Assembly: GCA_040261535.1 (NCBI GenBank)
Contig: JBDQNU010000001.1
Coordinates: forward strand, 75,109 to 139,108
Length of the DNA: 64,000 nt
DNA from: Poseidonia sp.
Lineage (GTDB): Archaea > Thermoplasmatota > Poseidoniia > Poseidoniales > Poseidoniaceae
Direction: 5' to 3'
The notes beneath the pieces were generated by a model. That model saw nothing but the letters and a program-made list of their open reading frames with translations. It made no database searches and was not told the origin of the DNA. Made by a program: the position numbers and the translations under genes. This document shows positions 6,597-56,656 of the stretch, in pieces. Each line of letters starts with the position of its first letter. Position 1 is the stretch's first letter.

Positions 6597-6597
6597 C

Positions 6598-7428: not shown

Positions 7429-7464
7429 GGTGAGAGGACGGTCCCGAATCGTTTGGTTCTTTGC

Positions 7465-26091: not shown

Positions 26092-26141
26092 GATATAGCG
26101 ACCTTTTGTGGGAAAATCTGTCCACGGACCGAGGTGAAGCG

Positions 26142-27395: not shown

Positions 27396-27459
27396 GCAGC
27401 GCCCTTCGCTAACCGATGCACTCATTCGGCGCACATCGCCACCAAGTGCTCAAAACCTC

Positions 27460-36312: not shown

Positions 36313-36405
36313 GCCAAGCCGTACGCTGTCGTCATTTCAGTCGCCGAGTCCGAGAAGCGACGGGATTTTATGCGTTCAAAGTGTGGCGGGACCGTAGGTG
36401 ACACC

Positions 36406-43661: not shown

Positions 43662-44540
43662 ATGGTCTACGACGGCCCCGTGCTCGACAATCATTTCCAC
43701 CTCAACCGGCGTGGGTTGTTTCTTGATGCAGCGCGTGGGTTCAAACAAGCCGGTGGGACGGACGTTGTCTTGGTGCACTGTCCGGATTTTTCAGCACCAC
43801 CAGAAACGTATGATGGGCATCGAGAGGCGTATGCGGACACCCTCGCCATGGCCCAAAGCGTCCGCACCGAAGTTGAGTTGGGCGTTCGTGTTGTTCTGGG
43901 GCCGCATCCAGCAGCCTTTGCTCACCAATTTGAGCGATGGGTGGCGGAGGAGGGTCAATCCGGTCGTGAGCGAGCCGTTCAGAATTACCGCCATTCCATT
44001 GACGCAGCGCTCCACTTTGTCCACGAAGGTCAAGCCCATGCCATCGGTGAGGTCGGTCGGCCTCACTGGCCGGTTTCCGATGAAATTTGGGATTTATCCA
44101 ACGAATTGCTCGAAGAGACCATGCACCTCGCTGCACAGGAGGGCATCCCTTTGCAACTCCACGTCGAAGGTGAATCGGCGTCCACGTATCCCGACCTCGC
44201 CCAGCGAGCGGTCCGACAAGGCATGGATTTGCTGAAACTGGTTCGTCATTACTCGCCCCCCGACGTGCGATCCGAGAACACCCACGGGTTGACGCCCAGC
44301 GTTCTTTGCGGAAAAGGAGCGATTGAGCGGTTGTTGGAAACCCACGAAGCCGCCCGCAACGGATTCTTCCTCGAGACCGACTACATGGACGACCCACGTC
44401 GTCCAGGCGCCGTTCTTGGACCGAAAACCGTGCCCAAGCGAACCCGCCAACTTCTCGAGGGAGGCATGGCCGAAGAGGTGCTTTGGCACACCCATCACGA
44501 CCTGCCGATGAAGGTCTACGGGGCTTTGGAAGACGTGTAG
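43662..44540 (+). CDS. TatD-family metal-dependent hydrolase
   Basis: Motifs DNHFHL (HxH), IGEVGRPHW and LQLHVE. ~292 aa from the Met at 43662. Confidence 0.78.
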   Translation: MVYDGPVLDNHFHLNRRGLFLDAARGFKQAGGTDVVLVHCPDFSAPPETYDGHREAYADTLAMAQSVRTEVELGVRVVLGPHPAAFAHQFERWVAEEGQSGRERAVQNYRHSIDAALHFVHEGQAHAIGEVGRPHWPVSDEIWDLSNELLEETMHLAAQEGIPLQLHVEGESASTYPDLAQRAVRQGMDLLKLVRHYSPPDVRSENTHGLTPSVLCGKGAIERLLETHEAARNGFFLETDYMDDPRRPGAVLGPKTVPKRTRQLLEGGMAEEVLWHTHHDLPMKVYGALEDV

Positions 44541-44614
44541 GAATCAACGACCGTTCGGCGCAATTCTCCCATCACATTGATGAAAGAGGATTTGCAGGCA
44601 ACGATGTGAGCGCC

Positions 44615-45697
44615 ATGCCCCGCCGAAGCCGCTGGCCGTTGCTTGTCGCGCTCTTGTTGTGCGGATTGCTCCTCCCTCTCGGAGCCGCTCAACTCCCGAC
44701 CGCACCCGGCGTTGAGATCGATTGCGAGGACAAGCAACCGGAACTCGACGTCCATCCGCTCAACGACCCGGAGGTGACCATCACCTGCACCGTGCGAAAC
44801 CCTTCTTCCTTCCAAGAATCCATCAGCGTCGAAAAAGAATGGGACGGGATGGAAGTCGACATGATGCTCGAGGAAGATACTTTTGACCTCGGTCCCGATG
44901 AAGAAGAAGACTTCACCGTCACCTTCTCAGGACAAACCCGCCTGTCCGCATCGCTTTCCTACGACTTTACTCTGGTCGCCACCGTCACCAACGTGGGGAT
45001 GCTTGATTGGCCGGAAGCCATGGCTTCCAATGCAAGCGTGAGCGGCGACCTGAACATCGCCTCCTACGGCATGGTTGAACTGGACATCTCCGACAAAAGC
45101 ACGCGAACCATGCAAGAAGACGATGAAGTCAAAATCACCTTCCAATTTCAAAACAACGGCAACGATGACGACAAGATTCGGGTGAGCATCGCCAACGCTG
45201 CAGAACTCGAAGAGGTTGGATTCTCGTTCCCCGGAGGCACGTTTGTTGCTGAAAACGTCGTTGAGGACGGAACTTCCACGGTTCGTGAATTGACCGTTCG
45301 GGCACCTTCCGATGTTCTTGTCGACGAACGCTACCAATTGGTGTTCCAAGCCCAGAGCGAAAACGACGATGAGGCACCGGTCATCGAGAGCACGGTCTCC
45401 ATTCAACTCGAGGCAGGCAAGACCGCTGGAGGCCTTGGCGGTGGCCTTGAAGAGGTGGACAAGGACACGGTCGTCCTGTACGGCAGCATCGGTGCTGCGG
45501 TCATCTTTGGCTTGGTGTTCGTTGCCGCCTTCGCACGTGCTCTTCGTCGTAGAGCCAACTCACAACCGATGTACGTCCCCCCTGTCGAGGTCCCTGACGA
45601 ACCCGAAGATGACGACCTCGACCTCTCCGAGTTGGACGATTTGTTTGCCGATGAAGAAGACGGTGACGACTTCGATTCGGTCTTTGCCGATTTGTAG
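44615..45697 (+). CDS. Secreted, C-terminally TM-anchored protein with acidic cytoplasmic tail
   Basis: It has a signal peptide (MPRRSRWPLLVALLLCGLLLPLGAAQ), a beta-rich acidic ectodomain, a TM (VVLYGSIGAAVIFGLVFVAAFA) and the tail ...PEDDDLDLSELDDLFADEEDGDDFDSVFADL. Confidence 0.7.
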   Translation: MPRRSRWPLLVALLLCGLLLPLGAAQLPTAPGVEIDCEDKQPELDVHPLNDPEVTITCTVRNPSSFQESISVEKEWDGMEVDMMLEEDTFDLGPDEEEDFTVTFSGQTRLSASLSYDFTLVATVTNVGMLDWPEAMASNASVSGDLNIASYGMVELDISDKSTRTMQEDDEVKITFQFQNNGNDDDKIRVSIANAAELEEVGFSFPGGTFVAENVVEDGTSTVRELTVRAPSDVLVDERYQLVFQAQSENDDEAPVIESTVSIQLEAGKTAGGLGGGLEEVDKDTVVLYGSIGAAVIFGLVFVAAFARALRRRANSQPMYVPPVEVPDEPEDDDLDLSELDDLFADEEDGDDFDSVFADL

Positions 45698-45782
45698 GCG
45701 GTTCACGCCACCGCCCGCCCTTGTCCGCCGCCGCTGAACTCGGCCGATGTGCCCCGATTTTAGGAGGAACACTCAAAGGCTT

Positions 45783-45820
45783 GGTGTAGCGCACTACACC
45801 TGTTCCCCAAGGGTGTTTTT
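45783..45820 (+). promoter_or_regulatory. Two mutually exclusive hairpins in the fabI leader
   Basis: Hairpin 1 is GGTGTAG-cgca-CTACACC (45783-45800). Its ACACC (45796-45800) can alternatively pair with GGTGT (45812-45816), which is followed by TTTTT immediately before the fabI ATG (45822). Confidence 0.3.
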
Positions 45821-45821
45821 C

Positions 45822-46613
45822 ATGTTGGGACTTGAAGGAAAAACAGCGTTCGTGTTTGGAGTTGCCAGTGAAGACTCCATCGCTTGGGCGATTTGCAAGC
45901 AACTTGCGGCTGCGGGCGTTACGCTCTATTTGGGCTATCAAAAGCGGTTCATGAGCCGGATTTTCCAACTCAAAGACCAGCTCCCCGCCATCGGGGGGTT
46001 CTATCCCTTGGACGTCTCCTCAGACGCCACCACCAAGGAATTCTTCACCGCTTTTGCAGCAGATCACCCCGGAAAAAAGGCAGACATCCTCATCCACGCC
46101 ATCGGTTTCGCCCCACGTTCCTGCTTTGACCGCCCCATCCTGTTCGTTGAAGACGAGGACATCAACACCGCCATGACCATCTCGGCCAACTCCTTGCAGC
46201 GCTGCCTTAAACACGCCTTGCCCTACTTGGCCGACGGCTCCTCGACCATCACCCTGACGTATGCGGCCTCCAATCGGTTCGTTCCGAGTTACGGCATCAT
46301 GTCGATGGCCAAAGCGGCCTTGGAGTGCTGGACGCGGGAGTTGGCCTGTCATCTCGGTCCCGAGGGTCACCGCATCAACGCCATCTCCTCCGGGCCCATC
46401 CGAACCATCGCTGCGAGCGGTATACCCGGTTTTGACCGAATTCTCGACCACGTGGAAGCCAACGCTCCGCTACGGCGCAACGTGAGCCAAGACGATGTCG
46501 CCGGAGCAACGCTGTGGCTCGCCAGTCCGCTCGCAGGTGGAGTGACGGGCCAGTGCATCTACGTCGATGCGGGCTATTCGATCACGATGGTGCCGGAGAG
46601 CATCATGAACTGA
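45822..46613 (+). CDS. fabI: Enoyl-[acyl-carrier-protein] reductase, FabI (SDR) type
   Basis: GKTAFVFGVASEDSIAWAI, HAIGFAP, YGIMSMAKAALE (Y-x6-K) and INAISSGPIRTIAASGI are collinear with E. coli FabI as I recall it. Confidence 0.92.
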   Translation: MLGLEGKTAFVFGVASEDSIAWAICKQLAAAGVTLYLGYQKRFMSRIFQLKDQLPAIGGFYPLDVSSDATTKEFFTAFAADHPGKKADILIHAIGFAPRSCFDRPILFVEDEDINTAMTISANSLQRCLKHALPYLADGSSTITLTYAASNRFVPSYGIMSMAKAALECWTRELACHLGPEGHRINAISSGPIRTIAASGIPGFDRILDHVEANAPLRRNVSQDDVAGATLWLASPLAGGVTGQCIYVDAGYSITMVPESIMN

Positions 46614-46622
46614 GGTGAGAGC

Positions 46623-49600
46623 ATGGGGTTGACCACGGAAGACGGCAAACCTTGCGAGGGGATTGAACAAGGCCCGTTTGAACCCGTTGCCATCGTGGGT
46701 CTCGGGGCGCTCATGCCCGACGCTTCGGACATCGATGCCTTTTGGGACAACATCTTGAATGCGAAAATCAGCATTCGTGAATTGCCCGAAGGTCGATGGC
46801 CGGGGCCGACTGAGCATTTTTGGAAAGAAGGCGGACCGGGCGAGCACACTGAAGGGTACACCTATGCGAAAATTGGGGCGCTTGTGGAAGGTGCGGAGTT
46901 TGATTGGCGACGCTGGCGCCAACCGCCGGGGACGCTGCCCCAAATCGACCCCTGTCAACAGTGGGCCGTGACCGTCTCGGCCGACGCCATCGAGCACGCA
47001 GGATACGACGGGGAAGAGAGAGACATCGACCGAACCCGAACGGGGGTGGTTTTTGCCAACGCTCTGGGCGGTGAAAACCGAAACATGTCAAACATCCGTG
47101 TATGGTCCAACCACACCACGACCCTCGCCAAGGAGCACGGTCTGCCTGCAGACAAGGCCGATGCGTTCCAGGATGCCGTTTTGGAAGGCACGCCGAGGGT
47201 TGACGAAGACACCATGCCCGGAGAGCTGGCGAACGTGGTTTCGGGTCGCGTGGCGAATTTGCTCGATTTGCAAGGTCCCAACCACGCCATGGACGCAGCG
47301 TGTGCTTCCTCGATGGCGGCCGTCCTCGATGCCTGCCGATTGTTGCAGACGCGACAGGTCGACGTCATGCTGGCCGGTGCTGCTGACCGGACGATGGATC
47401 CGGCCACCTTTGCGAAATTTTCAGCCATCGGGGCCCTGTCACCCACGCATTCCTCCCCGTTCGATGCTCGGGCCAACGGCTTCGTCATGGGCGAAGGTGC
47501 GGGGGTTCTCGTCCTCAAGCGCTTGAGCGACGCGATTCGTTCCGGCGATGAGATCTACAGCGTGATTCGCGGCGTCGGCGGCTCTTCGGATGGCCGAGGC
47601 AAAGGCATCACGGCGCCGAGTCAACGGGGTCAAGTGCAAGCCATCGCCAGGGCGTACAGCCAAGCCGGATATGCACCGTCAAGCGTTGAATTGGTGGAAG
47701 CGCACGGGACCTCGACCAAAGTTGGAGATGCTACCGAACTTTCGACCCTCTCTCGGTTGTGGACGGGAGTCGAGGGCACCGGCAAAGTCGCCGTGGGTTC
47801 CATCAAGTCCCAGATCGGCCACCTCAAGGCCGCAGCCGGCATTGCTGGCATCATGAAATCGGTGATGGCGCTCCACCATCGAACCATTCCCCCCAGCGCC
47901 AATTTCCAGACGCCCAACCCTACCGTGGATTGGGGCGCTATCCCGTTCTTCGTTCCCACCCAGCCCTTGGACTGGCCACGTCCCGCCGACCATCCTCGCC
48001 GGGCAGGCGTTTCCGCGTTCGGCTTTGGAGGCACCAACTTCCACATCGCTTTGGAAGGATACGAGCCCGATTTCCACGCTCCTCTGGCCGCCCAGTGGGA
48101 GGGTCGATGGCAGGCGTACAGCGGACAGGGCGATGCAGCTGCACCATCCGTGTTCGATGCCTCGCTTTCGCCAACCCTCACCCATGAAGCCCTCAAAGCG
48201 ATTGAGGGCGGCGTGTTGCTGCGCTCGGCTGCCTCGGTTGAGGCTTTGAGCGCCGATCTGGCTTCGCTCAGTTTCGAAGGCCCGTTGTTTGACGACGACC
48301 CTCGCGGCTTGCGGCTCTCGCAGGCGCTTCAGGAAGCCAGCGAGGCTTACAACGTGGGCCACCCCGTACGCTTGGCTTTGGTGGCGACCTCGTGGGCCGA
48401 ATTCACAAAACGTCAGTCCTTGGCCGTCCAAGCGATGGGCGACAAGGAAAAGTGGGGCTTTTTGCAAGCCCAAGGTGTCTTGCTCACGGACGAGGCAGCG
48501 CTACCCCCCGAGGCGAAAGCCGTTCACATGTATCCCGGTCAAGGCAGCCAATACGTCGGGATGACCGCTGACCTCGTCAAGCGATTCACGGCGCCGGACG
48601 ATGTTTGGCGTCAAGCCGACGAGACGATGGTCGAGGTGCTTGACGGCGAAACCCTCTCCAGTTTTGTGCTGCGCTCGGACCTCTCCAAAGAAGAGCGTCA
48701 AGAAGCCGAGCACAAACTCAAACAAACCGAATACACCCAACCGGCCATGCTCACGGCCGATTTGGCCATTGAGCGCACCCTGAACGCCTTCGGTCACCAA
48801 CCCGATATGGTCGCAGGGCACTCCCTTGGAGAATACGCAGCGCTGATGTCATCGGGGATTTTGGATATGGACGGTGCGTTGCGAGCCGCCGCTGCGCGGG
48901 GCACCGAGATGGGCTCGGTCGTCATCGACGACAAGGGCCTCATGGCGAGCGTGACCGCACCGTACGCCGAAGTCGAAGCGGTTTTGGAGGCGACCGACGG
49001 CTACGTCATCGCCGCCAACAAGAATTCGCCAAAGATGACGGTCATCGCCGGTGAAACCGCCCCCGTTCGGGCGGCCATGGCGTCGTTTGAAGCGAAGGGT
49101 TTCTCGTGCGTTGAACTCGCTACTTCACACGCCTTCCACTCAAGAATCGTGGCTCCTGCCAACGAACCGCTGCGCCGATTTTTGGAAGGCCTGGAGATTC
49201 GCTGGCCCAGCGTCCCCATCACCGCCAACGTTGACGGGACGTTTTATCCGACGAAGGGAGAGGAAGCCAAGGCTGCCATTTTGGAAAAACTTGCACCACA
49301 GATGGCGTCCTCGGTGGAATGGACCAAGCAGATCGAGACCATGTACGGTGCCGGAGGGCGCCTTTTCGTTGAAGTCGGGCCGAAACGTGCGCTGACGATG
49401 TTTGCCATGCAGATCTTGGAAGGCAAACCGCACGTTCCCGTCATGACCAATCATCCCAAACAGGGCGGAATCGCTTCGTTTTTCACGGCCATCGGGGCCC
49501 TTGCGTTGGCCGGCCGCCCACCCGAATGGCCTGCTCTCGACTCCCCTTCCCTCCAAGACGCCTTCAAGGCCGGTCCAATCGAAGCCCAAGGGGGCGCCGG

Positions 49601-52600
49601 TTTGGTCGCTTCTTCGACCACAGCAGAACTCGAAGCACTCCGTGTGCGTGCCCGTCCGCTGCCCGGAAGCGGCTCGCCTGCGCCGTCAGTGCCTGCGAAT
49701 TCAGCCGTGATGGCACCCCCCTCCAACGACGAGGCCGCTCTTGGTCGAGCGATACGAGGCTACGTCGGTGACCGCATCGCCGCCTTTAGCGGGTATCCAG
49801 CATCGTTCTGTCACGGTCATGTGGCTCTTGTTGACGGGTTGGGTTTGACGCCTGCGCAAGTGCAACAGGTTGCCGCAACGCTCGCTTCGGAAGCGACGAC
49901 TGACCCCGAAGTCGACGGCTATGCCGCGGTGACGGCTGGCGATTTCGAACGTTGGGTTCGCCGCCCTCCTGCAACGTGGCGCCCGATGGCTTCCGTCACC
50001 GCTCCTTCGTCTCCAATGAACGTCCCCGTTCACACGGTTGGCGCGCTTCAAACCGCTTCACGCCGGGACCAAGACCCCTACGTCGTGACGGGCGTCTCGT
50101 TGGGCCTGCCGGGAATGGACCGGGTGTTTTCAGAGGATGCGTTTGAGAAGCTTGTTCGCGGCGAGACCTGCATTAGCGAAGTCTCGGATGAATACAAACA
50201 ACGCCTGCTCGACAAGAACATCGTTCGGCTGATCAAAGGACGTGACGGCTCGGTGAACATGGACCAAGCCACCGTGTTTGGCGATATCCCGCAACTTGCC
50301 GGTCTCAAAGGGGCCTTTGACCTCGCCGACGAGTTTGGCATCGACCCCAAAGCGATTGTCGCTTGGGACATCAGCACCCAACTGTCCGTGGCCGCAGGCC
50401 TCCTTGCTCTGCGTGATGCTGGTATTCCGCTCACGCCGGTGGAGCAGGTCGGAAAGGGCGGGCTGAGGCTGATTCGGAACTGGCAGGTGCCTCAAATCCA
50501 GCGAGAGCGAACGGGGATCGTCTTCTCCTCCTGTTTCCCGGGCCTCCAAATGGCCTCAAAACATGCGAAATCCAACGGGGATGACGGCGAGGGACGCTTT
50601 GACCGGCGCTACCTCTTCCAAACGCTGAACATGGGCCATTCCCAATTCGCTCAGTACACCGGTATTCGAGGCCCCAACACCACGATCAACCTCGCTTGTG
50701 CTTCGGCCACCGCCGCCTTTGGCGTCGCCGAGGATTGGCTTGATGCGGGCCGTGTCGACCGCGTGGTCATCATCAGCGGTGACGATGTGACGGGAGACGA
50801 TCTCTGGGAATGGATTGCCGGTGGCTTTGCCGCGTCGGGCGCCGCCGCGACCAACAACGTCGTTGAAGAAACCGCACTGCCCTTTGACCGTAGACGCAAC
50901 GGGCTGATTTTGGGGATGGGCGCCGCTGCGTTCGTCGTGGAACGGCATTCGGAAGCCCAGCAAAGAGGCGTCCAGCCGATCGCCGAATTCCTCGGTTCAA
51001 CCACGGCAAATTCGGCCTACCACGGCACCCGGCTTGACGTTGAACACGTCGGGCAGGTCGTGAACGAGTTCATTACGAGCATGGAGCGGCGCTGGGGCTT
51101 TGACCGGCACCAAATCGCCCCCAACACCGTGTTCTACTCCCACGAAACCTACACGCCAGCGAGAGGGGGCTCGGCCCAATCGGAAGTGCGGGCTCTGCGG
51201 GAAACCTTTGGCGACTCAACGAACAAACTGGTCATTGCCAACACGAAAGGATTCACCGGCCATCCGATGGCGGTGGGCATTGAAGACGCGAGCATGTTCT
51301 ACGGTCTCTTGACCGGTCGGCTGCCCCCCATCGCCAACCACAAGGAGAAGGACCCCGAATTGGGAGATTTGAACCTCTCCACCGGTGGCGATTATCCAAA
51401 CGTGACCTATGGGCTTCGCTTTGCAGCCGGCTTTGGGTCGCAAATAGCGCTCTCGCTGATGCGAAAATGGCCGGTGGAAGGCGACCGCATCGACGGTGGG
51501 AAGTTGCTCGCTTGGGCCCGAGGACTCGCCGGAACGGACGATGTTGTCATGCGGGTCTTGCAAAACAAACTCGTGGCCTACGTCAACGGAGACGACAATT
51601 TGCACGGCGGCGTTCAAGGCGATGCTTGGCTCCCTACCGAGGCGTGGGAAGGAAAACCCTCTGCGCAACCGGTCGTCGCCTCAACACCCGTGGCGACCGA
51701 ACCCGCGGCGCCCTCGGTGGCTGAACCACCGGCAACGCCACCCGCACCAACTCCGGCCCCTCCTGCGCCCGTTGTTGGCGATGCAGACATGATTTCAACG
51801 GTCGTGGACGTGGTGGTTCACCACACCGGTTACCCGGCAGATTTCGTTGAGCTGGACCAGGACCTTGAGGGCGAATTGGGCATCGACACGGTGAAACAAG
51901 CCGAGATCATGGCGGACATCCGGGAACGATTCTCCCTCCCTGTCGACGAAGACTTCGTTCTTGCCGATTATCCAACCCTCAACCACATGATCGGCTACAT
52001 CCAGCGCATGACCGGCGGCGAAGCCGCCCCTGTTGTGGCGCCCGTTGCCGCCGCCACGTCTCCCGTAACCCTTCCTGAGGCCACCCCGCAGCCAGCAAAC
52101 GAAAGCGCTCCATCTGCGCCCCCGGTTGAGACGGTTGACGACGCTACGATGGTTGAAACCGTTGTTTCGGTGGTCGTTCATCACACCGGTTACCCGGCCG
52201 ACTTTATCGAACTCGACCAAGACCTCGAAGGGGAATTGGGCATTGATACGGTGAAGCAAGCCGAGATCATGGCGGACATTCGGGACCGATTTTCGCTCCC
52301 GGTCGACGAAGACTTTGTCTTGGCGGACCACCCTACGCTAAACCACATGATCGGGTACATCCAACGGATGAAGGGAGGCGCCTCCAAGGCCGCTCCAAGC
52401 GTCGTTTCCCCGCCCTCCCCGTCAAATGATCAACCGATGGCTGAACCCAAATCCGCTCCGCCCGCTTCATCCCCTGCTCCGGTCGCGACGGGCGGCCACG
52501 ACGAGATTGAATCCGTGTTGGTCGAAGTGGTGGTCAACCACACGGGCTATCCTGCGGATTTCATCGAGATGGACCAGGACCTCGAGGGTGAACTTGGCAT

Positions 52601-55454
52601 TGACACGGTGAAACAAGCTGAGATCATGGGGGAGATTCGGGAACGCTTCTCCTTGCCGGTCGACGAGGACTTCGTGTTGGCCGACCATCCAACGCTCAAC
52701 CATTTCACGGCCTACATCGTGAGGATGCAAGGCGGTGATGCAGCGGCAACCCAAGCGGAATCCAACGCTGAAGCCTCACCAGCCTCAGCCCAAGCCCCAG
52801 CATCGGCGCCTGCCGAGTCGGTGGCCACGGGCACCCGTCGGTGGCAGGTTGAGGTTGAAGCCTGTCCGGGCGTGCCATCCCCGCTTTCCCTTTCGGGAAC
52901 GGTTGTGGTTTCCGATGACGGTTGGGGCATCGCCGAGGCCTTCTGTCAACGCATGGAGGCAAGAGGTTTGAAGGCCGTGCGCGTTGGTTTTGAAAGCAAA
53001 ATCAGGGACCCATCTCGGCTTGAAGAAAACGGAAGGGTGGTCCTCAGGGCCGACCCGGAACAGCCCGAGCATCTCCAATGGATCGCCAGCGAACTCAGCG
53101 AAACCGCCTTGGCGGCCTTGGTTCACATGGCGCCAATAAAACTCGCCTCTGAACAATGGGGCGAGGACACCTACCCTTCCTCGCAGGTTGCCCTTGCCGC
53201 TCACGGATGGTTTGGACTGCTCAAGGAGTTGGGCGGGCATCTTTCAACCGAAAAGCCGGGGCTTGTCGCCTCGGTCACGGCCCTTGACGGACGCCACGGA
53301 AACATCGGCGACCGGTTCAACGCCGTTCAATGCGCTGCGAGCGGCATCACGAAATCCTATGCGTTTGAGCGCCCTGATTTGCGATGCCGTGCCTTGGATT
53401 TGCATCCTGACGTGGTATTGGACGAAACGGCCGCTGCTGAAGCCATTGAGCACGACTTGTTCGGTCTCGACGGCGAGGTTGAGGTCGGTCTGGACCGTGA
53501 CGGTCGCCGATGGGCACTCGTCGCCTTTGCGGAAGACGTCGTGGACGAGGTGAAACCGCTGACAGCGGCCGATACGTGGCTCGTCTCGGGCGGAGGCTCG
53601 GGCGTGACGGCTGCGTCCATCATCGGGGTGGCGAAGGCTTCGCCGAAAGCCGGGGCGCATTTCGTCTTGCTCGGTCGTTCGGTGCTCATCGAATCAACCG
53701 AATCTTGGATTGATTGGACGGAAGCCCAATTGACCGAAGAGAAGAACGCTTTGCGACAGCGCCTCGTCGATGCGAGCGATTCAGGCAAAGTAACGATGGT
53801 GGAATGGAACAAAGCATGGCGGGCCTTCACGCGAAGTTGCGATGTTTACCGGACGCTCCACGTCATTCAGCAAACCGGAAACACCGCTGAATACCGGTCC
53901 GTGGACGTCATGGACGCCGACGGTTTGCGTGACCTTGGCTCTTCGTTGGGCCGCCCCATCACCGGGGTGGTTCACGGAGCGGGCTTGGAAGATTCCAAGT
54001 TGGTCGCTGACAAAGGCTACGACGTCTTTGATCGTGTGGTCCGCGTCAAGGTTGACGGCTGGCGTGCTTTGCTGGGAGCCGTGAACGCCTCGGGATTGGA
54101 CGTCCCTGAATTTGCGTGTTGTTTCACGAGCGTCGCTGGACGGTTCGGCAACGGTGGGCAAACCGATTATGCGGCGGCCAACTCGATTCTTGACGCTGAA
54201 ATGGCCCGTTTGACCGCGACCTCTTCAGCTCGGGGGGTCGCCATCGGTTGGACCGGCTGGCGGGACGTCGGCATGGCGACTCGTGGGTCCATCGAAGCGG
54301 TTTTCGCCGCTGCGGGCATTGAGACGTTGGCGGTGGACGACGGCGTCGCCATCTTCGTCGCCGAGGCGTTGCAGGGCGGCAAGCGACGCGTTCTGGGCTG
54401 CGGCTCGCTCGGGCTGATGGACCGATTCTCGTCTTTCCGAGAAGCCCCGGTGAAGTTGCCTGCACCGATGTCGGAGTTGATGGCGGACCCGTCCCGTTTC
54501 CCGTTCATTGACAAGATGGTTGAACTGGAAGAACACGAGCGTCTTGTCTCGCAATGCACGCTGTCCACTGAAGACCATCCGTTCCTCATCGACCACGCCA
54601 TCGAAGGCGTTCCTTACCACCCCGGCGTGATGGCGTTGGAGATGTTTGCACAAAACGCCCTGTTGTTGCGCCCCACCACTTGCCTTGCAGGGTTTGAGGA
54701 CGTGGCGTTCGGCCTCCCCGTGAAACTTCTCAAGGGACCGATAACGGTGCGTGTCGAGGCTGAGTATCTTCGTTCCAAAGACGACATGACCTGGGTGCGT
54801 TGCCGCTTGGTTTCGGATTTGACGAATTCAAAAGGCGAGCGTTTCGGTGAGCGAGAACACCACGTGGCCACGGTTCGTCTGGTCAACAAGCAGGAAGACC
54901 TTCGGCCGTTTTTGCAGCATGAAGTCGAAGCGTTGCCCACGATCGGCACGCCGCCGGGCGGTGTGTTGCTCCACGGCCCCGAGTTCATCTATTCGCGATA
55001 TTTCCACGGGCCCCGCTTCCAATCTCACGGTGGCGTGCTCGCTGGGTTTGGTGACGAGAATGCCATCGGCATCGATGGCGTGGCCCTGATGCGCCATCAA
55101 CTTCCGGCCACCGATCAGTTTGCTAACGAGCAAGCCGGCGAGACGGTGCTGCTCGAAGCCCTGCCCATGCTCATCGAAGCCGGCTTCCAAAATGCCGGTT
55201 TGGTGGCCATGGAATCGCTTGGATACAGCAGCCTTCCCGTCGGCATCGCATGGTCCACCATGCTTCGCGTTCCTGAAGCGGACGAACACCTTCGTCTCCG
55301 CAGTTTGCAAACGGCTCATCACGACGACGGCGTCACCGAGCACGATGTGTTGATCGTCGGCGAGGACGACGCGCCCGTGCTTTCCCTCAAGGGATTGAAA
55401 CTGAAGGCCATGGCCACGGTTGAAGAGGGCCAACGGTTCTCGCTCGAGCGCTGA
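46623..55454 (+). CDS. 2943-aa type-I FAS/PKS-like megasynthase: KS - AT - degenerate carrier - KS - 3x carrier - KR - DH
   Basis: It is a single uninterrupted ORF, with a 9-nt gap after fabI and a 1-nt overlap (TGATG) with the PPTase gene. Domain motifs are listed in the sub-features below. Confidence 0.95.
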   Translation: MGLTTEDGKPCEGIEQGPFEPVAIVGLGALMPDASDIDAFWDNILNAKISIRELPEGRWPGPTEHFWKEGGPGEHTEGYTYAKIGALVEGAEFDWRRWRQPPGTLPQIDPCQQWAVTVSADAIEHAGYDGEERDIDRTRTGVVFANALGGENRNMSNIRVWSNHTTTLAKEHGLPADKADAFQDAVLEGTPRVDEDTMPGELANVVSGRVANLLDLQGPNHAMDAACASSMAAVLDACRLLQTRQVDVMLAGAADRTMDPATFAKFSAIGALSPTHSSPFDARANGFVMGEGAGVLVLKRLSDAIRSGDEIYSVIRGVGGSSDGRGKGITAPSQRGQVQAIARAYSQAGYAPSSVELVEAHGTSTKVGDATELSTLSRLWTGVEGTGKVAVGSIKSQIGHLKAAAGIAGIMKSVMALHHRTIPPSANFQTPNPTVDWGAIPFFVPTQPLDWPRPADHPRRAGVSAFGFGGTNFHIALEGYEPDFHAPLAAQWEGRWQAYSGQGDAAAPSVFDASLSPTLTHEALKAIEGGVLLRSAASVEALSADLASLSFEGPLFDDDPRGLRLSQALQEASEAYNVGHPVRLALVATSWAEFTKRQSLAVQAMGDKEKWGFLQAQGVLLTDEAALPPEAKAVHMYPGQGSQYVGMTADLVKRFTAPDDVWRQADETMVEVLDGETLSSFVLRSDLSKEERQEAEHKLKQTEYTQPAMLTADLAIERTLNAFGHQPDMVAGHSLGEYAALMSSGILDMDGALRAAAARGTEMGSVVIDDKGLMASVTAPYAEVEAVLEATDGYVIAANKNSPKMTVIAGETAPVRAAMASFEAKGFSCVELATSHAFHSRIVAPANEPLRRFLEGLEIRWPSVPITANVDGTFYPTKGEEAKAAILEKLAPQMASSVEWTKQIETMYGAGGRLFVEVGPKRALTMFAMQILEGKPHVPVMTNHPKQGGIASFFTAIGALALAGRPPEWPALDSPSLQDAFKAGPIEAQGGAGLVASSTTAELEALRVRARPLPGSGSPAPSVPANSAVMAPPSNDEAALGRAIRGYVGDRIAAFSGYPASFCHGHVALVDGLGLTPAQVQQVAATLASEATTDPEVDGYAAVTAGDFERWVRRPPATWRPMASVTAPSSPMNVPVHTVGALQTASRRDQDPYVVTGVSLGLPGMDRVFSEDAFEKLVRGETCISEVSDEYKQRLLDKNIVRLIKGRDGSVNMDQATVFGDIPQLAGLKGAFDLADEFGIDPKAIVAWDISTQLSVAAGLLALRDAGIPLTPVEQVGKGGLRLIRNWQVPQIQRERTGIVFSSCFPGLQMASKHAKSNGDDGEGRFDRRYLFQTLNMGHSQFAQYTGIRGPNTTINLACASATAAFGVAEDWLDAGRVDRVVIISGDDVTGDDLWEWIAGGFAASGAAATNNVVEETALPFDRRRNGLILGMGAAAFVVERHSEAQQRGVQPIAEFLGSTTANSAYHGTRLDVEHVGQVVNEFITSMERRWGFDRHQIAPNTVFYSHETYTPARGGSAQSEVRALRETFGDSTNKLVIANTKGFTGHPMAVGIEDASMFYGLLTGRLPPIANHKEKDPELGDLNLSTGGDYPNVTYGLRFAAGFGSQIALSLMRKWPVEGDRIDGGKLLAWARGLAGTDDVVMRVLQNKLVAYVNGDDNLHGGVQGDAWLPTEAWEGKPSAQPVVASTPVATEPAAPSVAEPPATPPAPTPAPPAPVVGDADMISTVVDVVVHHTGYPADFVELDQDLEGELGIDTVKQAEIMADIRERFSLPVDEDFVLADYPTLNHMIGYIQRMTGGEAAPVVAPVAAATSPVTLPEATPQPANESAPSAPPVETVDDATMVETVVSVVVHHTGYPADFIELDQDLEGELGIDTVKQAEIMADIRDRFSLPVDEDFVLADHPTLNHMIGYIQRMKGGASKAAPSVVSPPSPSNDQPMAEPKSAPPASSPAPVATGGHDEIESVLVEVVVNHTGYPADFIEMDQDLEGELGIDTVKQAEIMGEIRERFSLPVDEDFVLADHPTLNHFTAYIVRMQGGDAAATQAESNAEASPASAQAPASAPAESVATGTRRWQVEVEACPGVPSPLSLSGTVVVSDDGWGIAEAFCQRMEARGLKAVRVGFESKIRDPSRLEENGRVVLRADPEQPEHLQWIASELSETALAALVHMAPIKLASEQWGEDTYPSSQVALAAHGWFGLLKELGGHLSTEKPGLVASVTALDGRHGNIGDRFNAVQCAASGITKSYAFERPDLRCRALDLHPDVVLDETAAAEAIEHDLFGLDGEVEVGLDRDGRRWALVAFAEDVVDEVKPLTAADTWLVSGGGSGVTAASIIGVAKASPKAGAHFVLLGRSVLIESTESWIDWTEAQLTEEKNALRQRLVDASDSGKVTMVEWNKAWRAFTRSCDVYRTLHVIQQTGNTAEYRSVDVMDADGLRDLGSSLGRPITGVVHGAGLEDSKLVADKGYDVFDRVVRVKVDGWRALLGAVNASGLDVPEFACCFTSVAGRFGNGGQTDYAAANSILDAEMARLTATSSARGVAIGWTGWRDVGMATRGSIEAVFAAAGIETLAVDDGVAIFVAEALQGGKRRVLGCGSLGLMDRFSSFREAPVKLPAPMSELMADPSRFPFIDKMVELEEHERLVSQCTLSTEDHPFLIDHAIEGVPYHPGVMALEMFAQNALLLRPTTCLAGFEDVAFGLPVKLLKGPITVRVEAEYLRSKDDMTWVRCRLVSDLTNSKGERFGEREHHVATVRLVNKQEDLRPFLQHEVEALPTIGTPPGGVLLHGPEFIYSRYFHGPRFQSHGGVLAGFGDENAIGIDGVALMRHQLPATDQFANEQAGETVLLEALPMLIEAGFQNAGLVAMESLGYSSLPVGIAWSTMLRVPEADEHLRLRSLQTAHHDDGVTEHDVLIVGEDDAPVLSLKGLKLKAMATVEEGQRFSLER
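46680..48056 (+). other. KS1 domain (PKS/PfaA-type ketosynthase)
   Basis: VAIVGLGALMPDA; active Cys227 in NHAMDAACASS (TGT at 47301-47303); EAHGTSTKVGD; SQIGHLKAAAG; GFGGTNFHIALE. Confidence 0.9.
48522..49427 (+). other. Acyltransferase domain (malonyl-type)
   Basis: YPGQGSQYVGM; GHSLGEYAA (Ser734); TSHAFHS (HAFH motif, associated with malonyl specificity in the PKS literature). Confidence 0.9.
49740..49958 (+). other. Degenerate carrier-protein-like domain (CP0)
   Basis: IRGYVGDRIAAFSGYPASFCHGHVALVDGLGLTPAQVQQVAATL is collinear with the downstream carrier domains (TGYPADF...DLEGELGIDTVKQAEIMADI). The D-T dipeptide reads L-T (Thr1076). Confidence 0.55.
50073..51467 (+). other. KS2 domain (FabF/FabB-like, catalytic triad intact)
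   Basis: PYVVTGVSLGLPG; Cys1359 in TTINLACASATAA (TGT at 50697-50699); YSHETYTPARGG (compare HGTSTPAGD); NTKGFTGHPMAVG (compare STKSMTGHLLGAAG). Confidence 0.85.
51786..52730 (+). repeat. Three tandem carrier-protein (ACP-like) domains separated by A/P-rich linkers; DNA period ~357-360 nt
   Basis: The units lie at ~51786-52013, 52146-52373 and 52503-52730. Each encodes ...VVHHTGYPADF(V/I)E(L/M)DQDLEGELGIDTVKQAEIM(A/G)(D/E)IR(E/D)RFSLPVDEDFVLAD(Y/H)PTLNH.... Thr codons ACG sit at 51888-90, 52248-50 and 52605-07, at the position of the usual DSL serine. Confidence 0.9.
53565..54302 (+). other. Ketoreductase domain
   Basis: TWLVSGGGSGVTAASIIGVA (Rossmann), VVHGAG and FTSVAGRFGNGGQTDYAAANSILD (S...YxxxN). 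A structural sub-domain precedes it from ~52845. Confidence 0.85.
54495..55451 (+). other. PKS-type dehydratase (double hotdog) domain
   Basis: HPFLIDHAIEGVPYHPG contains HxxxGxxxxP (His2658). The ~320-aa C-terminal region fits a PS-DH fold in length. Confidence 0.8.
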
Positions 55455-56221
55455 TGGTGGTGTCCATGACGGGCATGACGGAATTGAGTTCACCCGTGCC
55501 CGGCGTCCGCCTCTTTGCAAGTCCCGTGCACGCTCATGCTCTCGCCGACGTCCCGCTGGCAGACGCCGGCGAGGTGGCGACGTTTGCAACCGAGAAACGG
55601 CGCAACGAACACTTGACCGGACGGTGGTTGCTCGGCCAAGCCCTGATGGCGCACGGAGAGCGGGATTTGTCCGCCCTGGAGGTCCTGCGAAGCGAACAGC
55701 GTGCTCCGTCACTTGCCTTCATCCAAGGTGCGTGGCGTCGTACACCGTTGCCGTCCATCTCCATCGCTCACAGCGGCGGAAGGGCGGTGGTGGCGTTGGG
55801 TCCTGCTGGCCGATGCATCGGCATTGACCTCGAACCGTTGGAGCGTGCGTTGGCTCAAAACGCGTTTGATCTCATCGCCAAAGGCGAGGAACTTGAACAA
55901 CTTCGGCTGCATCCTGAACAGGCCATGCGGTTGTGGACGGGGAAGGAAGCGGTCCAGAAAGCGATGGGTTTGGGGATGCACCTCAACCCGAGGGATATTC
56001 AAATTCCAATTGATAACAATAGGAGTCAGATTCCAATTGAAAAATCAAAAATCCAATTGGAATATTGGACTGACGAGGAGTATCATTTTTCCCTCGCCTC
56101 TCGACCAAAACCAGTCCCCGAACGCACGCCCGAGGACGTGCTCTTGGACCAAACCAAGGCGGCGATGAACGCCAATCCCGATTGGGGCGTGGGTTGCAAC
56201 ACCCAACGAAACGCTCGGTAA
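55454..56221 (+). CDS. 4'-phosphopantetheinyl transferase (Sfp/EntD type)
   Basis: 255 aa. Motifs SIAHSGGRAVVAL, IGIDLEPLER (metal-binding D/E) and LWTGKEAVQKAMG (WxxKEAxxK). The start overlaps the megasynthase stop (TGATG). Confidence 0.85.
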   Translation: MVVSMTGMTELSSPVPGVRLFASPVHAHALADVPLADAGEVATFATEKRRNEHLTGRWLLGQALMAHGERDLSALEVLRSEQRAPSLAFIQGAWRRTPLPSISIAHSGGRAVVALGPAGRCIGIDLEPLERALAQNAFDLIAKGEELEQLRLHPEQAMRLWTGKEAVQKAMGLGMHLNPRDIQIPIDNNRSQIPIEKSKIQLEYWTDEEYHFSLASRPKPVPERTPEDVLLDQTKAAMNANPDWGVGCNTQRNAR

Positions 56222-56656
56222 TCACTCCCAGAAGCGACTGCTCTCCCAAGGCAGGTCCAAGGCAATGCCCACCTCGGTTAACACGACGTAGTTGAACACC
56301 AGATAGATCAGCGTGCTCAAAATCAACACGACCAGAGAGGTGTTGACGATGCGTGTTCGTTGTTTCTTGGCCTGGTCGAGCGTGCAGATGCCTTCGCTTC
56401 GGAAATAGAGGGTCAACCCAACGAGCACCAAAACCACGCTTACGGCGGACAGCAACGGACGGAACCAGCCCATCCCGTTGGTTCCCCAATACAAGTCGTT
56501 GGAAAGCGCAGCGGCGGAGGAGACGCTCGCAAGGCCGAAGAACACCAACACGACGCTTGGAAAACAACACATGGATGCGAGGAAGGCCGAGCCTCCAATG
56601 TACTTCCAAAGCGCTTTGATGTCCTGCCCGATGCTCTGTTCTCCCACGTTGTTCAT
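56222..56656 (-). CDS. Small 4-TM membrane protein with a vicinal Cys-Cys motif in TM1 (MerT-like feature; function unknown)
   Basis: 144 aa. FLASMCCFPSVVLVFFGL resembles the CC-x-x-P helix of MerT-type transporters. One further Cys lies in a loop (SEGICTLD). The assignment is weak. Confidence 0.5.
   Translation of the reverse strand: MNNVGEQSIGQDIKALWKYIGGSAFLASMCCFPSVVLVFFGLASVSSAAALSNDLYWGTNGMGWFRPLLSAVSVVLVLVGLTLYFRSEGICTLDQAKKQRTRIVNTSLVVLILSTLIYLVFNYVVLTEVGIALDLPWESSRFWE

What the first reader, a model, noticed from the sequence alone, without database searches (positions are those of the whole stretch)
45822..56221. Complete fatty-acyl synthase toolkit (FabI + KS-AT-CP'-KS-CP3-KR-DH megasynthase + PPTase) embedded in an archaeal chromosome
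Three co-directional genes are packed tightly (9-nt gap, then a TGATG overlap).

Components:
- An SDR-type FabI, with YGIMSMAKAALE and INAISSGPIRTIAASGI.
- A 2943-aa synthase. Its motifs give KS1 (Cys227, EAHGTST, GHLKAAAG), a malonyl-type AT (GHSLGE, HAFH), a degenerate carrier, KS2 (Cys1359 with both His motifs), three near-identical carriers, KR (YAAAN) and a PKS-type DH (HxxxGxxxxP).
- An Sfp-type PPTase (GIDLEP, WTGKEAVQKAMG).

With FabI acting in trans, this covers every activity of a full reductive elongation cycle.

The flanking genes are clearly archaeal: orc1/cdc6, carS, a tRNA without encoded CCA, PPAT-DUF359 and HTH_10. By eye, GC and codon style do not change at the cluster borders.

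The layout resembles PfaA/HglE-type secondary-lipid synthases (KS-AT-ACPn-KR-DH) but differs in three ways. It has an extra, apparently active KS. It uses FabI instead of a PfaD/FabK-type enoyl reductase. It has no FabA-like DH/isomerase or chain-length-factor partner.

Archaea are generally held to lack ACP-dependent fatty acid synthesis, so a self-contained cluster with its own carrier-activating enzyme is the most system-like novelty in this window. I cannot tell from the sequence alone whether homologs are already described.
Basis: partly seen in the sequence, partly recalled or inferred. Interest (0 to 1): 0.9.

Follow-up and report, generated by a model that had tools for sequence, protein, structure and literature searches.

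The report
Archaeal fatty-acyl megasynthase with threonine carriers
A marine group II archaeon carries a real, anciently inherited three-gene operon (enoyl reductase, 2943-residue PfaA-like synthase, carrier-activating enzyme) of a catalogued but uncharacterised bacterial "Type R" lipid-synthase family, and every carrier in it has threonine where the cofactor-bearing serine normally sits.

Summary
FabI (45822-46613), a 2943-aa KS-AT-ACP'-KS-ACP3-KR-DH synthase (46623-55454) and an Sfp-type PPTase (55454-56221) are present, with a 9-nt gap and a TGATG overlap.

The host is a Poseidoniales (Marine Group II) archaeon. Composition does not change across the cluster. The cluster sits in the same TBP/TatD/M28 neighbourhood in distant relatives and is under strong purifying selection. 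Mis-assembly and recent transfer are excluded.

The layout is not new. It matches the "Type R secondary lipid synthase" of Shulse & Allen 2011 (KS-MAT-"CLF"-ACP3-6-KR plus downstream PPTase), whose product is unknown. The family occurs in Acidobacteriota, Elusimicrobiota, Chloroflexota, Actinomycetota, Myxococcota and Heimdallarchaeota.

Poseidoniales add two things: an operon-encoded FabI and a degenerate ACP-fold domain.

- The second KS keeps an invariant Cys-His-His triad plus Lys, so it is an active KS rather than a chain-length factor.
- All carriers read GIDTVKQAE, with Thr at the phosphopantetheine position. Across the family the count is 411 Thr to 31 Ser, with several independent switches.

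Best reading: a self-contained ACP-dependent iterative fatty-acyl synthase. Product and release step are unknown.

The parts
45783..45800 (+). Conserved inverted repeat GGTGT-N8-ACACC, 22 nt upstream of the FabI start. A TATA-like GATTTTAGG lies at 45756-45764. Candidate operator or 5'-UTR element of the operon.
   Evidence: The same palindrome sits at the same place in Poseidoniaceae loci L004, L005, L046 and L051. It occurs once in the window. Its function was not tested.
45822..46613 (+). FabI-type (SDR) enoyl-ACP reductase, 263 aa from Met26 of the ORF that begins at 45747.
   Evidence: Pfam adh_short_C2 231 bits. The best NCBIfam hits are all FabI equivalogs (220 bits, below their cut-offs of 299-477). 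GVASEDSIAW, Tyr-x6-Lys (YGIMSMAK) and the upstream Tyr are present. Homologs at 59-93% identity occur in MGIIa and MGIIb, and several are named FabI by NCBI or JGI.
46623..55454 (+). 2943-aa iterative type I synthase: KS1-AT-ACP'-KS2-ACP-ACP-ACP-KR-DH.
   Evidence: The best NCBIfam hit is TIGR02813 omega_3_PfaA at 862 bits (cut-off 1010). More than 100 full-length homolog clusters at 69-99% identity are named Poseidonia or Poseidoniales. dN/dS is about 0.04 against L084.
46680..47906 (+). KS1 (Cys227, His362, His400).
   Evidence: ketoacyl-synt plus Ketoacyl-synt_C. Its closest solved relatives are type I PKS KS-AT didomains.
48522..49466 (+). Malonyl-type acyltransferase (GHSLGE 732, HAFH 836).
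   Evidence: Acyl_transf_1 131 bits; TIGR00128 fabD 195 bits. Malonyl specificity is inferred from the HAFH motif (established knowledge).
49710..49997 (+). ACP', a degenerate carrier-fold domain (aa 1030-1125). Its motif is GLGL[T/S/N/A]P instead of GxD[S/T].
   Evidence: No Pfam hit. hhalign against the carriers gives probability 38%, E 3e-4. AF2 pLDDT is 88, and the top 50 Foldseek hits are all ACPs (TM 0.5-0.75). It is conserved within Poseidoniales but not across the wider family.
50082..51470 (+). KS2, a FabF-like second ketosynthase with Cys1359, His1507, Lys1542 and His1547.
   Evidence: ketoacyl-synt 58 bits. It matches FabF structures at E 5e-26 over both halves. The four residues are invariant in 131 family members.
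51801..52718 (+). Three tandem carrier domains (51801-52001, 52158-52361, 52518-52718). Each reads LGIDTVKQAEI. The Thr codons are ACG at 51888-51890, 52248-52250 and 52605-52607.
   Evidence: PP-binding 34-36 bits each. Thr aligns with the phosphopantetheine Ser of the PigH ACPs and of B. subtilis ACP.
53490..54266 (+). Ketoreductase (Rossmann GGGSGVT at aa 2323, catalytic YAAAN at 2516, LED motif of B-type KRs).
   Evidence: Pfam KR 83 bits over aa 2409-2548. It matches PKS KR structures. The B-type assignment is by motif and was not tested.
54501..55415 (+). PKS-type double-hotdog dehydratase (HAIEGVPYHP at aa 2658).
   Evidence: PKS_DH_N 36 bits; PS-DH is weak at 15.5 bits.
55454..56221 (+). 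Sfp-type 4'-phosphopantetheinyl transferase, translationally coupled to the synthase (TGATG).
   Evidence: ACPS 43 bits and 4PPT_N 26.8 bits. GIDLE 123, WTGKEAVQK 161 and ISIAHS 103 are present. A PPTase follows the synthase in Poseidoniales and in many bacterial members.

Best explanation
The three genes form one operon. It encodes a self-contained, carrier-protein-dependent, iterative type I fatty-acyl synthase of the 'Type R secondary lipid synthase' family. An ancestor of Poseidoniales acquired it from bacteria, and it has been inherited vertically since.

Proposed mechanism.
- The PPTase transfers phosphopantetheine from CoA to the three tandem carriers, most probably onto the conserved Thr (inferred).
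- The AT loads malonyl units.
- KS1 and KS2, both catalytically competent, carry out the decarboxylative condensations. They probably divide the work by chain length or by initiation versus elongation, as the several KS domains of PUFA synthases do (inferred).
- The B-type KR and the PKS-type DH produce a trans-2-enoyl thioester.
- FabI, supplied by the operon because this archaeon has no FAS II of its own, reduces the enoyl thioester in trans (inferred).

The product would be a long, largely saturated acyl chain. The release enzyme and the fate of the product are not encoded in the operon. The most likely fate is acylation of glycerol-3-phosphate lipids through the PlsC homologs reported in this order.
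For: Shown here.
- All domains and catalytic motifs are present.
- The KS2 catalytic residues are invariant in 131 relatives.
- The operon junctions are tight.
- The FabI-synthase-PPTase order and the TBP/TatD...M28 neighbourhood are conserved in homologs at 70% and at 48% identity.
- FabI occurs in both MGIIa and MGIIb.
- dN/dS is about 0.04 for the synthase and 0.21 for the PPTase.
- There is no composition break.

Family membership.
- The layout equals Type R (PMC3098273).
Nearly all that hold enough of the gene show collinear KS1-AT/KS2/KR-DH matches.

FAS-like use of malonyl-CoA.
- In bacterial members the commonest co-directional downstream neighbour is an acetyl-CoA carboxylase. BC-containing neighbours occur in 29 loci and CT neighbours in 13.
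- The same link is seen in a Thermoplasmatota locus and a Heimdallarchaeota locus.
- A biotin carboxylase lies at 30890-32230 in the window.

FabI is needed.
- It is adjacent only in Poseidoniales loci. By published accounts this lineage lacks ACP-dependent FAS.

Thr as the attachment site.
- It aligns to the modified Ser of solved ACPs.
- In 150 representatives the position is Thr 411 and Ser 31, with almost nothing else.
- One protein mixes Ser-Thr-Ser.
- Each Ser-type member has Thr-type nearest relatives.
- A Ser-type relative carries a homologous PPTase downstream.

PlsC is reported in most Poseidoniales genera (Rinke 2019 supplement).
Against: - No member of the Type R family has a characterised product in the literature I could search.
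- No thioesterase or acyltransferase is in the operon.
- The FabI scores lie below NCBIfam equivalog cut-offs, so its substrate is not certain.
- To my knowledge phosphopantetheinylation of Thr has no precedent. I recall that E. coli ACP S36T is not modified by AcpS; I did not check this here.
- I could not scan a whole Poseidoniales genome for other carriers, FAS II genes or PlsX/Y.
- MGII lipid surveys cited in the papers I read discuss ether lipids and fatty-acid degradation, not fatty-acid synthesis.
Confidence: 0.68

Rival explanations
1. The cluster makes a specialised 'secondary lipid' or polyketide rather than bulk membrane fatty acids. Candidates include a hydroxy or partly unsaturated long chain, an alkyl moiety for a glycolipid or phenolic lipid, or a hydrocarbon precursor. 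FabI would act in only some cycles.
For: - The family was defined as secondary-lipid synthases.
- The related characterised types make heterocyst glycolipids, phenolic-lipid alkyl chains or PUFAs (PMC3098273).
- Bacterial hosts of the family have their own FAS II, so there the product must be additional to membrane fatty acids.
- Two KS domains and three or more tandem carriers are hallmarks of PUFA-type rather than housekeeping synthases (best model is PfaA).
Against: - In Poseidoniales the cluster is order-wide, syntenic and sits among housekeeping genes.
- FabI was recruited into the operon only there.
- The order lacks G1P dehydrogenase but has G3P dehydrogenase and plsC, which creates a need for acyl chains.
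- The two readings differ in product fate, not in mechanism.
Confidence: 0.25
2. The Thr carriers are not phosphopantetheinylated. The tandem domains would then be structural or docking elements. The synthase would work on CoA thioesters or on a separate, unlinked carrier, or it would be catalytically dead in this lineage.
For: - Ser is otherwise near-universal at this position (own knowledge).
- No paper on Thr-linked phosphopantetheine was found.
- The upstream ACP' domain shows that carrier folds without an attachment motif do occur in this protein.
Against: - A PPTase gene is translationally coupled to the synthase and conserved (dN/dS 0.21) in a lineage with no other reported carrier.
- The position tolerates only Thr and Ser across hundreds of divergent proteins, with repeated switches and a mixed Ser-Thr-Ser protein.
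- The whole GIDTVKQAE helix-II start is invariant.
- All catalytic domains are under strong constraint.
Confidence: 0.08
3. The region is bacterial DNA joined to an archaeal contig by mis-assembly or binning error, or it is a very recent horizontal acquisition.
For: The closest characterised relatives are bacterial. The family is mostly bacterial.
Against: - The same gene order with the archaeal flanks TBP, TatD and M28 recurs on independent contigs from different samples. Contigs carrying synthase homologs reach 2-3 Mb.
- Tetranucleotide and GC3 values match the flanks.
- Identities between the families of the order are 48-60%, as expected for old vertical descent.
Confidence: 0.01

Closest known systems
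Type R secondary lipid synthase (Shulse & Allen 2011, PLoS One 6:e20146): pfaA homolog KS-MAT-CLF-ACP(3-6)-KR followed by a PPTase gene. Reported in Koribacter, Solibacter, Elusimicrobium minutum and Roseiflexus.
   Same: - Same domain order and same downstream PPTase.
- Collinear homology to the E. minutum gene (KS1-AT 43%, KS2 38%, KR-DH 26% identity).
- The PPTase has the hShxH (ISIAH) motif that the paper assigns to Types M-T.
- The family link to acetyl-CoA carboxylase genes noted in the paper is confirmed here.
   Different: - Archaeal host.
- FabI encoded immediately upstream in the operon.
- An extra degenerate ACP-fold domain between AT and KS2.
- The paper's 'CLF' is here, and in all 131 relatives examined, a KS with an intact Cys-His-His triad plus Lys.
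- The paper does not list the C-terminal PKS-type DH or the Thr-for-Ser carriers. Its product is uncharacterised.
PfaA of bacterial PUFA synthases (PfaABCDE), and HglE of heterocyst glycolipid synthesis.
   Same: - KS-MAT-tandem ACP-KR-(DH) core.
- Best NCBIfam model is TIGR02813 (862 bits).
- A dedicated Sfp-type PPTase.
   Different: - The score is below the family cut-off (1010).
- A second active KS is inserted in the same polypeptide.
- There are no PfaB, PfaC (KS-CLF-FabA-DH2) or PfaD (FMN ER) partners.
- The ER is an SDR FabI.
- The carriers read GIDTVKQAE, not GIDSIKRVEI (compare P0191).
Enediyne PKSE (KS-AT-ACP-KR-DH-PPTase). This resemblance is from memory and is a lead only.
   Same: An iterative KS-AT-ACP-KR-DH order with the PPTase function at the 3' end. 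Here the PPTase is a separate but overlapping gene.
   Different: PKSE has one KS, one ACP, a fused PPTase and no ER, and it makes a conjugated polyene. This comparison was not tested here.
Bacterial type II FAS enoyl-ACP reductase FabI.
   Same: - SDR fold.
- Gly-rich dinucleotide motif.
- Tyr/Tyr-x6-Lys catalytic residues.
- The best hits are 12 FabI equivalog models.
   Different: - It scores below every equivalog cut-off.
- Its only plausible substrate is an enoyl chain on a megasynthase carrier domain, not on free ACP.
ACP-independent archaeal fatty acid synthase complex of Sulfolobus acidocaldarius (bioRxiv 10.1101/2024.07.05.601840).
   Same: It is also a proposed route to fatty acids in an archaeon.
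   Different: That system uses CoA thioesters, a thiolase/DUF35 complex, a FabG-like SDR, MaoC and an MDR reductase. The present one is carrier-dependent, malonyl-driven and of bacterial type.

Membership tests
Type R secondary lipid synthase (Shulse & Allen 2011) | A single pfaA homolog with the order KS - MAT - second KS-like ('CLF') domain - 3 to 6 tandem ACPs - KR. | tested here: met
   Pfam on the whole protein and on pieces: KS 20-428, AT 634-948, KS 1154-1445(-1616), three PP-binding domains, KR 2407-2548.
Type R secondary lipid synthase (Shulse & Allen 2011) | A PPTase gene directly downstream, with the P1b' motif hShxH. | tested here: met
   ACPS plus 4PPT_N hits and the TGATG overlap. 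ISIAHS is at residue 103.
Type R secondary lipid synthase (Shulse & Allen 2011) | Homology to the genes of the named Type R organisms. | tested here: met
   Elusimicrobium minutum locus L117 was retrieved by the carrier motif. It matches KS1-AT, KS2 and KR-DH in order. Roseiflexus, Koribacter and Solibacter themselves were not among the rows returned.
Type R secondary lipid synthase (Shulse & Allen 2011) | The proximal KS groups with the Type R clade in a KS phylogeny. | not tested
   The reference sequences of the other types were not available, and no tree was built.
Chain-length factor (CLF) identity of the second KS-like domain | Loss of the active-site Cys (typically replaced by Gln). | tested here: not met
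   Cys1359, His1507, Lys1542 and His1547 are invariant in 131 aligned family members. The domain is a KS, not a CLF.
PUFA synthase PfaA (TIGR02813) | Score above the curated cut-off. | tested here: not met
   862 bits against a cut-off of 1010.1.
PUFA synthase PfaA (TIGR02813) | Partner genes pfaB, pfaC (KS-CLF-FabA-type DH2) and pfaD (FMN ER). | tested here: not met
   None is present in the 64-kb window or in the syntenic loci.
FabI enoyl-ACP reductase | Score above an NCBIfam FabI equivalog cut-off. | tested here: not met
   The best is 220 bits (NF005615, cut-off 391). The lowest cut-off among the FabI models is 299, where the protein scores 161.5.
FabI enoyl-ACP reductase | SDR fold with the FabI catalytic Tyr, Tyr-x6-Lys and the Gly-rich cofactor motif. 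| tested here: met
   adh_short_C2 231 bits over the full profile. TYAAS 146, YGIMSMAK 157 and GVASEDSIAW 13 are present.
FabI enoyl-ACP reductase | Reduces trans-2-enoyl thioesters bound to a carrier. | not testable with these tools
   This needs an enzyme assay.
Sfp-type (group II) PPTase | Two-lobed protein of about 230 aa with ACPS and 4PPT_N domains and the GxDxE and WxxKEAxxK motifs. | tested here: met
   ACPS 43.4 bits (cut-off 25). 4PPT_N scores 26.8 bits against a cut-off of 27, so it is marginal. The motifs are at residues 123 and 161.
Phosphopantetheine-binding carrier domain (PF00550) | Profile match. | tested here: met
   34-36 bits each against a cut-off of 20.8.
Phosphopantetheine-binding carrier domain (PF00550) | Conserved Ser at the start of helix II (GxDS) as the attachment site. 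| tested here: not met
   Thr is found in all three carriers, in all 373 carriers of the 120 closest homologs, and in 411 of 449 carriers of 150 representatives.

The most novel reading that the evidence does not exclude
The Type R family, including this archaeal operon, uses threonine-linked phosphopantetheine. As far as I know this is an undescribed variant of the universal carrier-protein modification, installed by the co-encoded PPTase. In Poseidoniales, with the recruited FabI, this machinery would be the missing fatty-acid source for the ester-type or 'mixed' membrane lipids proposed for one of the ocean's most abundant archaeal groups.
Probability: 0.35. Interest if true: 0.85.

Novelty: new variant of a known kind. 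Interest (0 to 1): 0.62.

Why it matters
- Archaea are described as lacking ACP and ACP synthase, and MGII archaea as lipid degraders. MGII also lacks G1P dehydrogenase while having G3P dehydrogenase and plsC. That combination prompted the 'mixed membrane' hypothesis, but no acyl-chain source was identified.
- This operon is a concrete, order-wide candidate for that source. It has only three genes, so it is small enough to express heterologously, which makes the hypothesis directly testable.
- The whole family, thousands of genes in soil, gut and marine bacteria and in Heimdallarchaeota, carries Thr at the cofactor site. If Thr is modified, textbook carrier-protein chemistry and PPTase specificity need a footnote, and motif-based annotation of 'inactive' carriers would be wrong for this family.
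- The frequent pairing with dedicated acetyl-CoA carboxylases suggests a high-flux lipid pathway whose product is still unknown.

Tried and rejected
- Mis-assembly or recent transfer: rejected by composition and by conserved synteny on independent long contigs.
- PfaA membership: rejected. The score is below the cut-off and no partner genes are present.
- CLF identity of the second KS: rejected.
- An alternative nearby Ser as the attachment site: none lies within about 10 residues of the motif, and Thr aligns to the modified Ser.
- Literature searches found no description of the MGII synthase or of Thr-linked phosphopantetheine. Terms covered MGII/Poseidoniales with PKS, PUFA synthase, ketoacyl, ACP, PPTase, hglE-KS and Type R organisms. 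Villanueva et al. 2017 is not held, so I could not see which MGII 'fatty acid genes' it lists.
- Sequence searches of the 550-aa downstream protein gave only sub-threshold Lipase_3 and chlorophyllase hints. Structure prediction was needed to place it. It is not conserved next to the cluster (absent in L004 and L006), so I do not count it as the release enzyme.
- Comparing the PPTase of a Ser-type relative with this one (33% identity, same motifs) showed nothing that explains Thr against Ser specificity.
ORFs under 150 aa were not scanned.
Full report
**1. Observation**

The window holds three co-directional ORFs: 45747..46613, 46623..55454 (2943 aa) and 55454..56221.
- FabI's stop is followed by 9 nt (GGTGAGAGC) and then the synthase ATG. 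The synthase stop and the PPTase start overlap as TGATG.
- Homologous FabI genes are called at 263-264 aa.
- Pfam, NCBIfam and piecewise scans confirm every domain:
  - KS1 20-428 with its C-terminal extension
  - AT 634-948
  - a second ketoacyl-synt domain from 1154, which aligns to FabF structures over both halves (E 5e-26)
  - three PP-binding domains
  - KR 2407-2548
  - a PKS-type DH
- FabI gives 231 bits to adh_short_C2, and its best NCBIfam hits are twelve FabI models. All lie below their equivalog cut-offs.
- The PPTase hits ACPS and, marginally, 4PPT_N.

**2. Host and integrity**

- The 120 best homolog clusters are full length and 69-99% identical. Where named, they come from Poseidonia, Poseidoniaceae or Poseidoniales, on contigs up to 2 Mb.
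- The window also encodes TBP, Orc1/Cdc6, PPAT-DUF359 and a tRNA-Gly without an encoded CCA.
- The tetranucleotide correlation of the cluster with the rest of the window is 0.953. Equal-sized chunks give 0.943-0.978. GC3 matches the neighbours.
- The order [large protein]-[268 aa]-TBP-TatD-[about 380 aa]-FabI-synthase-PPTase-[small membrane protein]-...-M28 peptidase recurs on independent contigs whose synthases are 70% identical. It recurs in shortened form (TatD-FabI-synthase-PPTase ... M28) on a 3-Mb contig whose synthase is 48% identical.
- FabI homologs occur in both MGIIa and MGIIb.
- Against a relative at 80% identity, dN/dS is about 0.04 for the synthase (dS is saturated) and 0.21 for the PPTase.
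- Mis-assembly, contamination, decay and recent transfer are all excluded.

**3. What it is**

- Shulse & Allen define the 'Type R' secondary lipid synthase as one pfaA homolog, KS-MAT-CLF-ACP(3-6)-KR, followed by a PPTase gene. They report it in Acidobacteria, Elusimicrobium minutum and Roseiflexus, with an unknown product and frequent linkage to lipid genes such as ACC (PMC3098273).
- A search of 1.84 billion representatives with the KS2-carrier segment found 1143 proteins at E<1e-30. The best 150 mostly have KS2 at about residue 1200-1300 of a 2800-4000 aa protein.
- Some of these carry names: Polyangiaceae, another Thermoplasmatota archaeon and a Heimdallarchaeote.
- I scanned one genome per GTDB species for the DNA pattern encoding G[IV]DT[VI]KQAE.
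  - About 12 are archaeal: Poseidoniales and relatives, plus two Heimdallarchaeota, one from a complete genome.
  - The rest come from Acidobacteriota, Chloroflexota, Actinomycetota, Myxococcota, Elusimicrobiota (including E. minutum), Gemmatimonadota, Rhodothermales and others.
- tblastn shows the same collinear KS1-AT, KS2 and KR-DH, often with a PPTase, in nearly all loci that hold enough of the gene.
- The cluster is therefore a member of this family.

**4. What is particular to Poseidoniales**

- FabI is adjacent only in the Poseidoniales loci.
- The segment between AT and KS2 is a variable linker in most of the family. In Poseidoniales it is a conserved domain of about 95 residues.
  - It models with pLDDT 88, and its 50 best structural matches are all ACPs.
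  - It has GLGL[T/S/N/A]P where the carriers have LGIDTV.

**5.

(a) KS2 is not a chain-length factor. Cys1359, His1507, Lys1542 and His1547 are invariant in 131 aligned members.

(b) None of the carriers has the canonical Ser.
- All three window carriers read LGIDTVKQAEI, with ACG codons at 51888, 52248 and 52605.
- All 373 carriers in the 120 closest homologs read the same.
- The Thr aligns with the phosphopantetheinylated Ser of the PigH ACPs and of B. subtilis ACP.
- In 150 representatives the position is Thr 411 times and Ser 31 times, with only stray others in poorly aligned copies.
- 17 of the 31 Ser come from two proteins with canonical PfaA-type carriers (GIDSIKRVEI/GVDSIKRVEI).
- Four members of the family proper are Ser-type or mixed. 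One reads GIDSVKQAE and one mixes Ser-Thr-Ser. Each has Thr-type nearest relatives by KS2 identity.
- The Ser-type relative closest to the Poseidoniales clade has a homologous PPTase just downstream.
- Only Ser and Thr are tolerated, the switches are repeated, and a conserved, translationally coupled PPTase persists in a lineage otherwise reported to lack carriers. Together these argue that Thr is a working attachment site.
- This is inference. I know of no precedent, and a phrase and motif search of the library found none.

**6. Mechanism**

Steps shown by sequence:
- a malonyl-type AT (GHSLGE, HAFH)
- two competent KS domains
- a KR with the LED variant of the B-type LDD motif and a YAAAN tyrosine
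- a HxxxGxxxxP dehydratase
- a FabI with its catalytic residues
- an Sfp-type PPTase

Steps inferred:
- The PPTase primes the Thr carriers.
- KS1 and KS2 share iterative elongation.
- KR and DH yield trans-2-enoyl intermediates that FabI reduces in trans, giving a largely saturated chain.

The argument for FabI is comparative. Bacterial hosts have a housekeeping enoyl reductase, whereas the archaeal lineage had to bring one into the operon. In some bacterial members an acyl-CoA-dehydrogenase-like gene occupies the upstream position.

Demand for malonyl-CoA is supported by neighbourhood analysis.
- The commonest co-directional downstream neighbour in bacterial members is an acetyl-CoA carboxylase: 29 loci have a biotin-carboxylase-containing neighbour and 13 have a carboxyltransferase neighbour. 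One of the former is a single-chain BC-BCCP-central-CT enzyme.
- BioY, biotin carboxylase and BCCP follow the synthase in another Thermoplasmatota genome.
- A carboxyltransferase and a KAS III-like gene lie upstream in a Heimdallarchaeote.
- In the window, a biotin carboxylase (30890-32230) and BioY (12696-13307) are present but not adjacent.

Nothing in the operon releases the chain.

**7. Fate of the product**

- Rinke et al. report that no Poseidoniales MAG encodes G1P dehydrogenase. [quoted passage not shown]
- Villanueva et al. [quoted passage not shown]
- None of the MGII genome papers I could read mentions this synthase.
- The cluster is the obvious candidate source of acyl chains.
- The family's bacterial members must make something additional to housekeeping fatty acids. 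A specialised lipid therefore remains a serious rival.

**8. Verdict**

The cluster is an ACP-type synthase operon native to an archaeal lineage. Its architecture, however, belongs to a known though uncharacterised family, and the toolkit lacks a release step.
- Novelty lies in three things: the archaeal variant (operon FabI, ACP'), the correction of 'CLF' to an active KS, and the family-wide Thr carriers.
- Interest is moderate to high, at 0.62.

Noticed in passing
window 45756-45800: A TATA-like GATTTTAGG is followed by a conserved block and a perfect inverted repeat GGTGT-N8-ACACC (45783-45800), 22 nt before the FabI start. The same palindrome sits at the same place in four other Poseidoniaceae loci and occurs once in the window. 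It is a candidate operator or leader element for the operon.
   Followed up: partly
window 56661-58313 (-): A 550-aa protein found only in Poseidoniales. It has an N-terminal helical membrane bundle and a C-terminal alpha/beta-hydrolase of the cutinase/PETase/chlorophyllase/PAF-AH-lipase fold (AF2 pLDDT 82; Foldseek E about 3e-8, TM 0.63-0.69). The GGHSLG motif is invariant. It converges on the PPTase gene here and in L005 but is absent in L004 and L006. It could be an esterase or lipase, and a role in chain release is unproven.
   Followed up: yes
window 56222-56656 (-): A 144-aa membrane protein with a CC pair in its first helix (MCCFPS) lies directly downstream of the PPTase on the opposite strand. 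Proteins of similar size occupy the same position in L004 and L005. No family match was found.
   Followed up: partly
window 26106-28518 (+): A FAD/NAD-binding reductase (CYPOR-like) is followed by a FA_hydroxylase-superfamily membrane di-iron enzyme. This is a possible lipid hydroxylase/desaturase pair, about 18 kb upstream of the synthase.
   Followed up: no
window 30890-32230 (+), 12696-13307 (-), 5817-8421: A biotin carboxylase, a BioY biotin transporter and beta-oxidation genes (enoyl-CoA hydratase, 3-hydroxyacyl-CoA dehydrogenase) share the window with the synthase. No carboxyltransferase was found in the window.
   Followed up: partly
L021 (CP084166, Ca. Heimdallarchaeum aukensis, complete genome), L054, L002: Heimdallarchaeota carry synthases of the same family. 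Some have Thr carriers and one (P0146) has Ser carriers. In L002 an acetyl-CoA carboxylase carboxyltransferase and a KAS III-like gene lie upstream. This bears on debates about fatty-acid lipids in the archaeal relatives of eukaryotes.
   Followed up: partly
L035:2991-7997, L121:3596-5335, L100:4325-6142 and 29+13 further loci: Bacterial members of the family are very often followed by a dedicated acetyl-CoA carboxylase. In Ilumatobacter this is a eukaryote-like single-chain BC-BCCP-ACC_central-CT enzyme. Several members are preceded by an acyl-CoA-dehydrogenase-like gene at the position where Poseidoniales have FabI.
   Followed up: yes
window 35899-42291 (+), 60712-63939 (-), 44483-45697 (+): Large, very acidic proteins (2130, 1075 and 404 aa) with no Pfam match. 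The 404-aa one has a signal-like N-terminus and a C-terminal membrane anchor. They are probably surface proteins.
   Followed up: no
window 45697-45715: A GC-rich hairpin (GGCGG-N9-CCGCC) lies immediately after the stop of the upstream 404-aa gene. It may be a transcript-end structure separating that gene from the operon.
   Followed up: no
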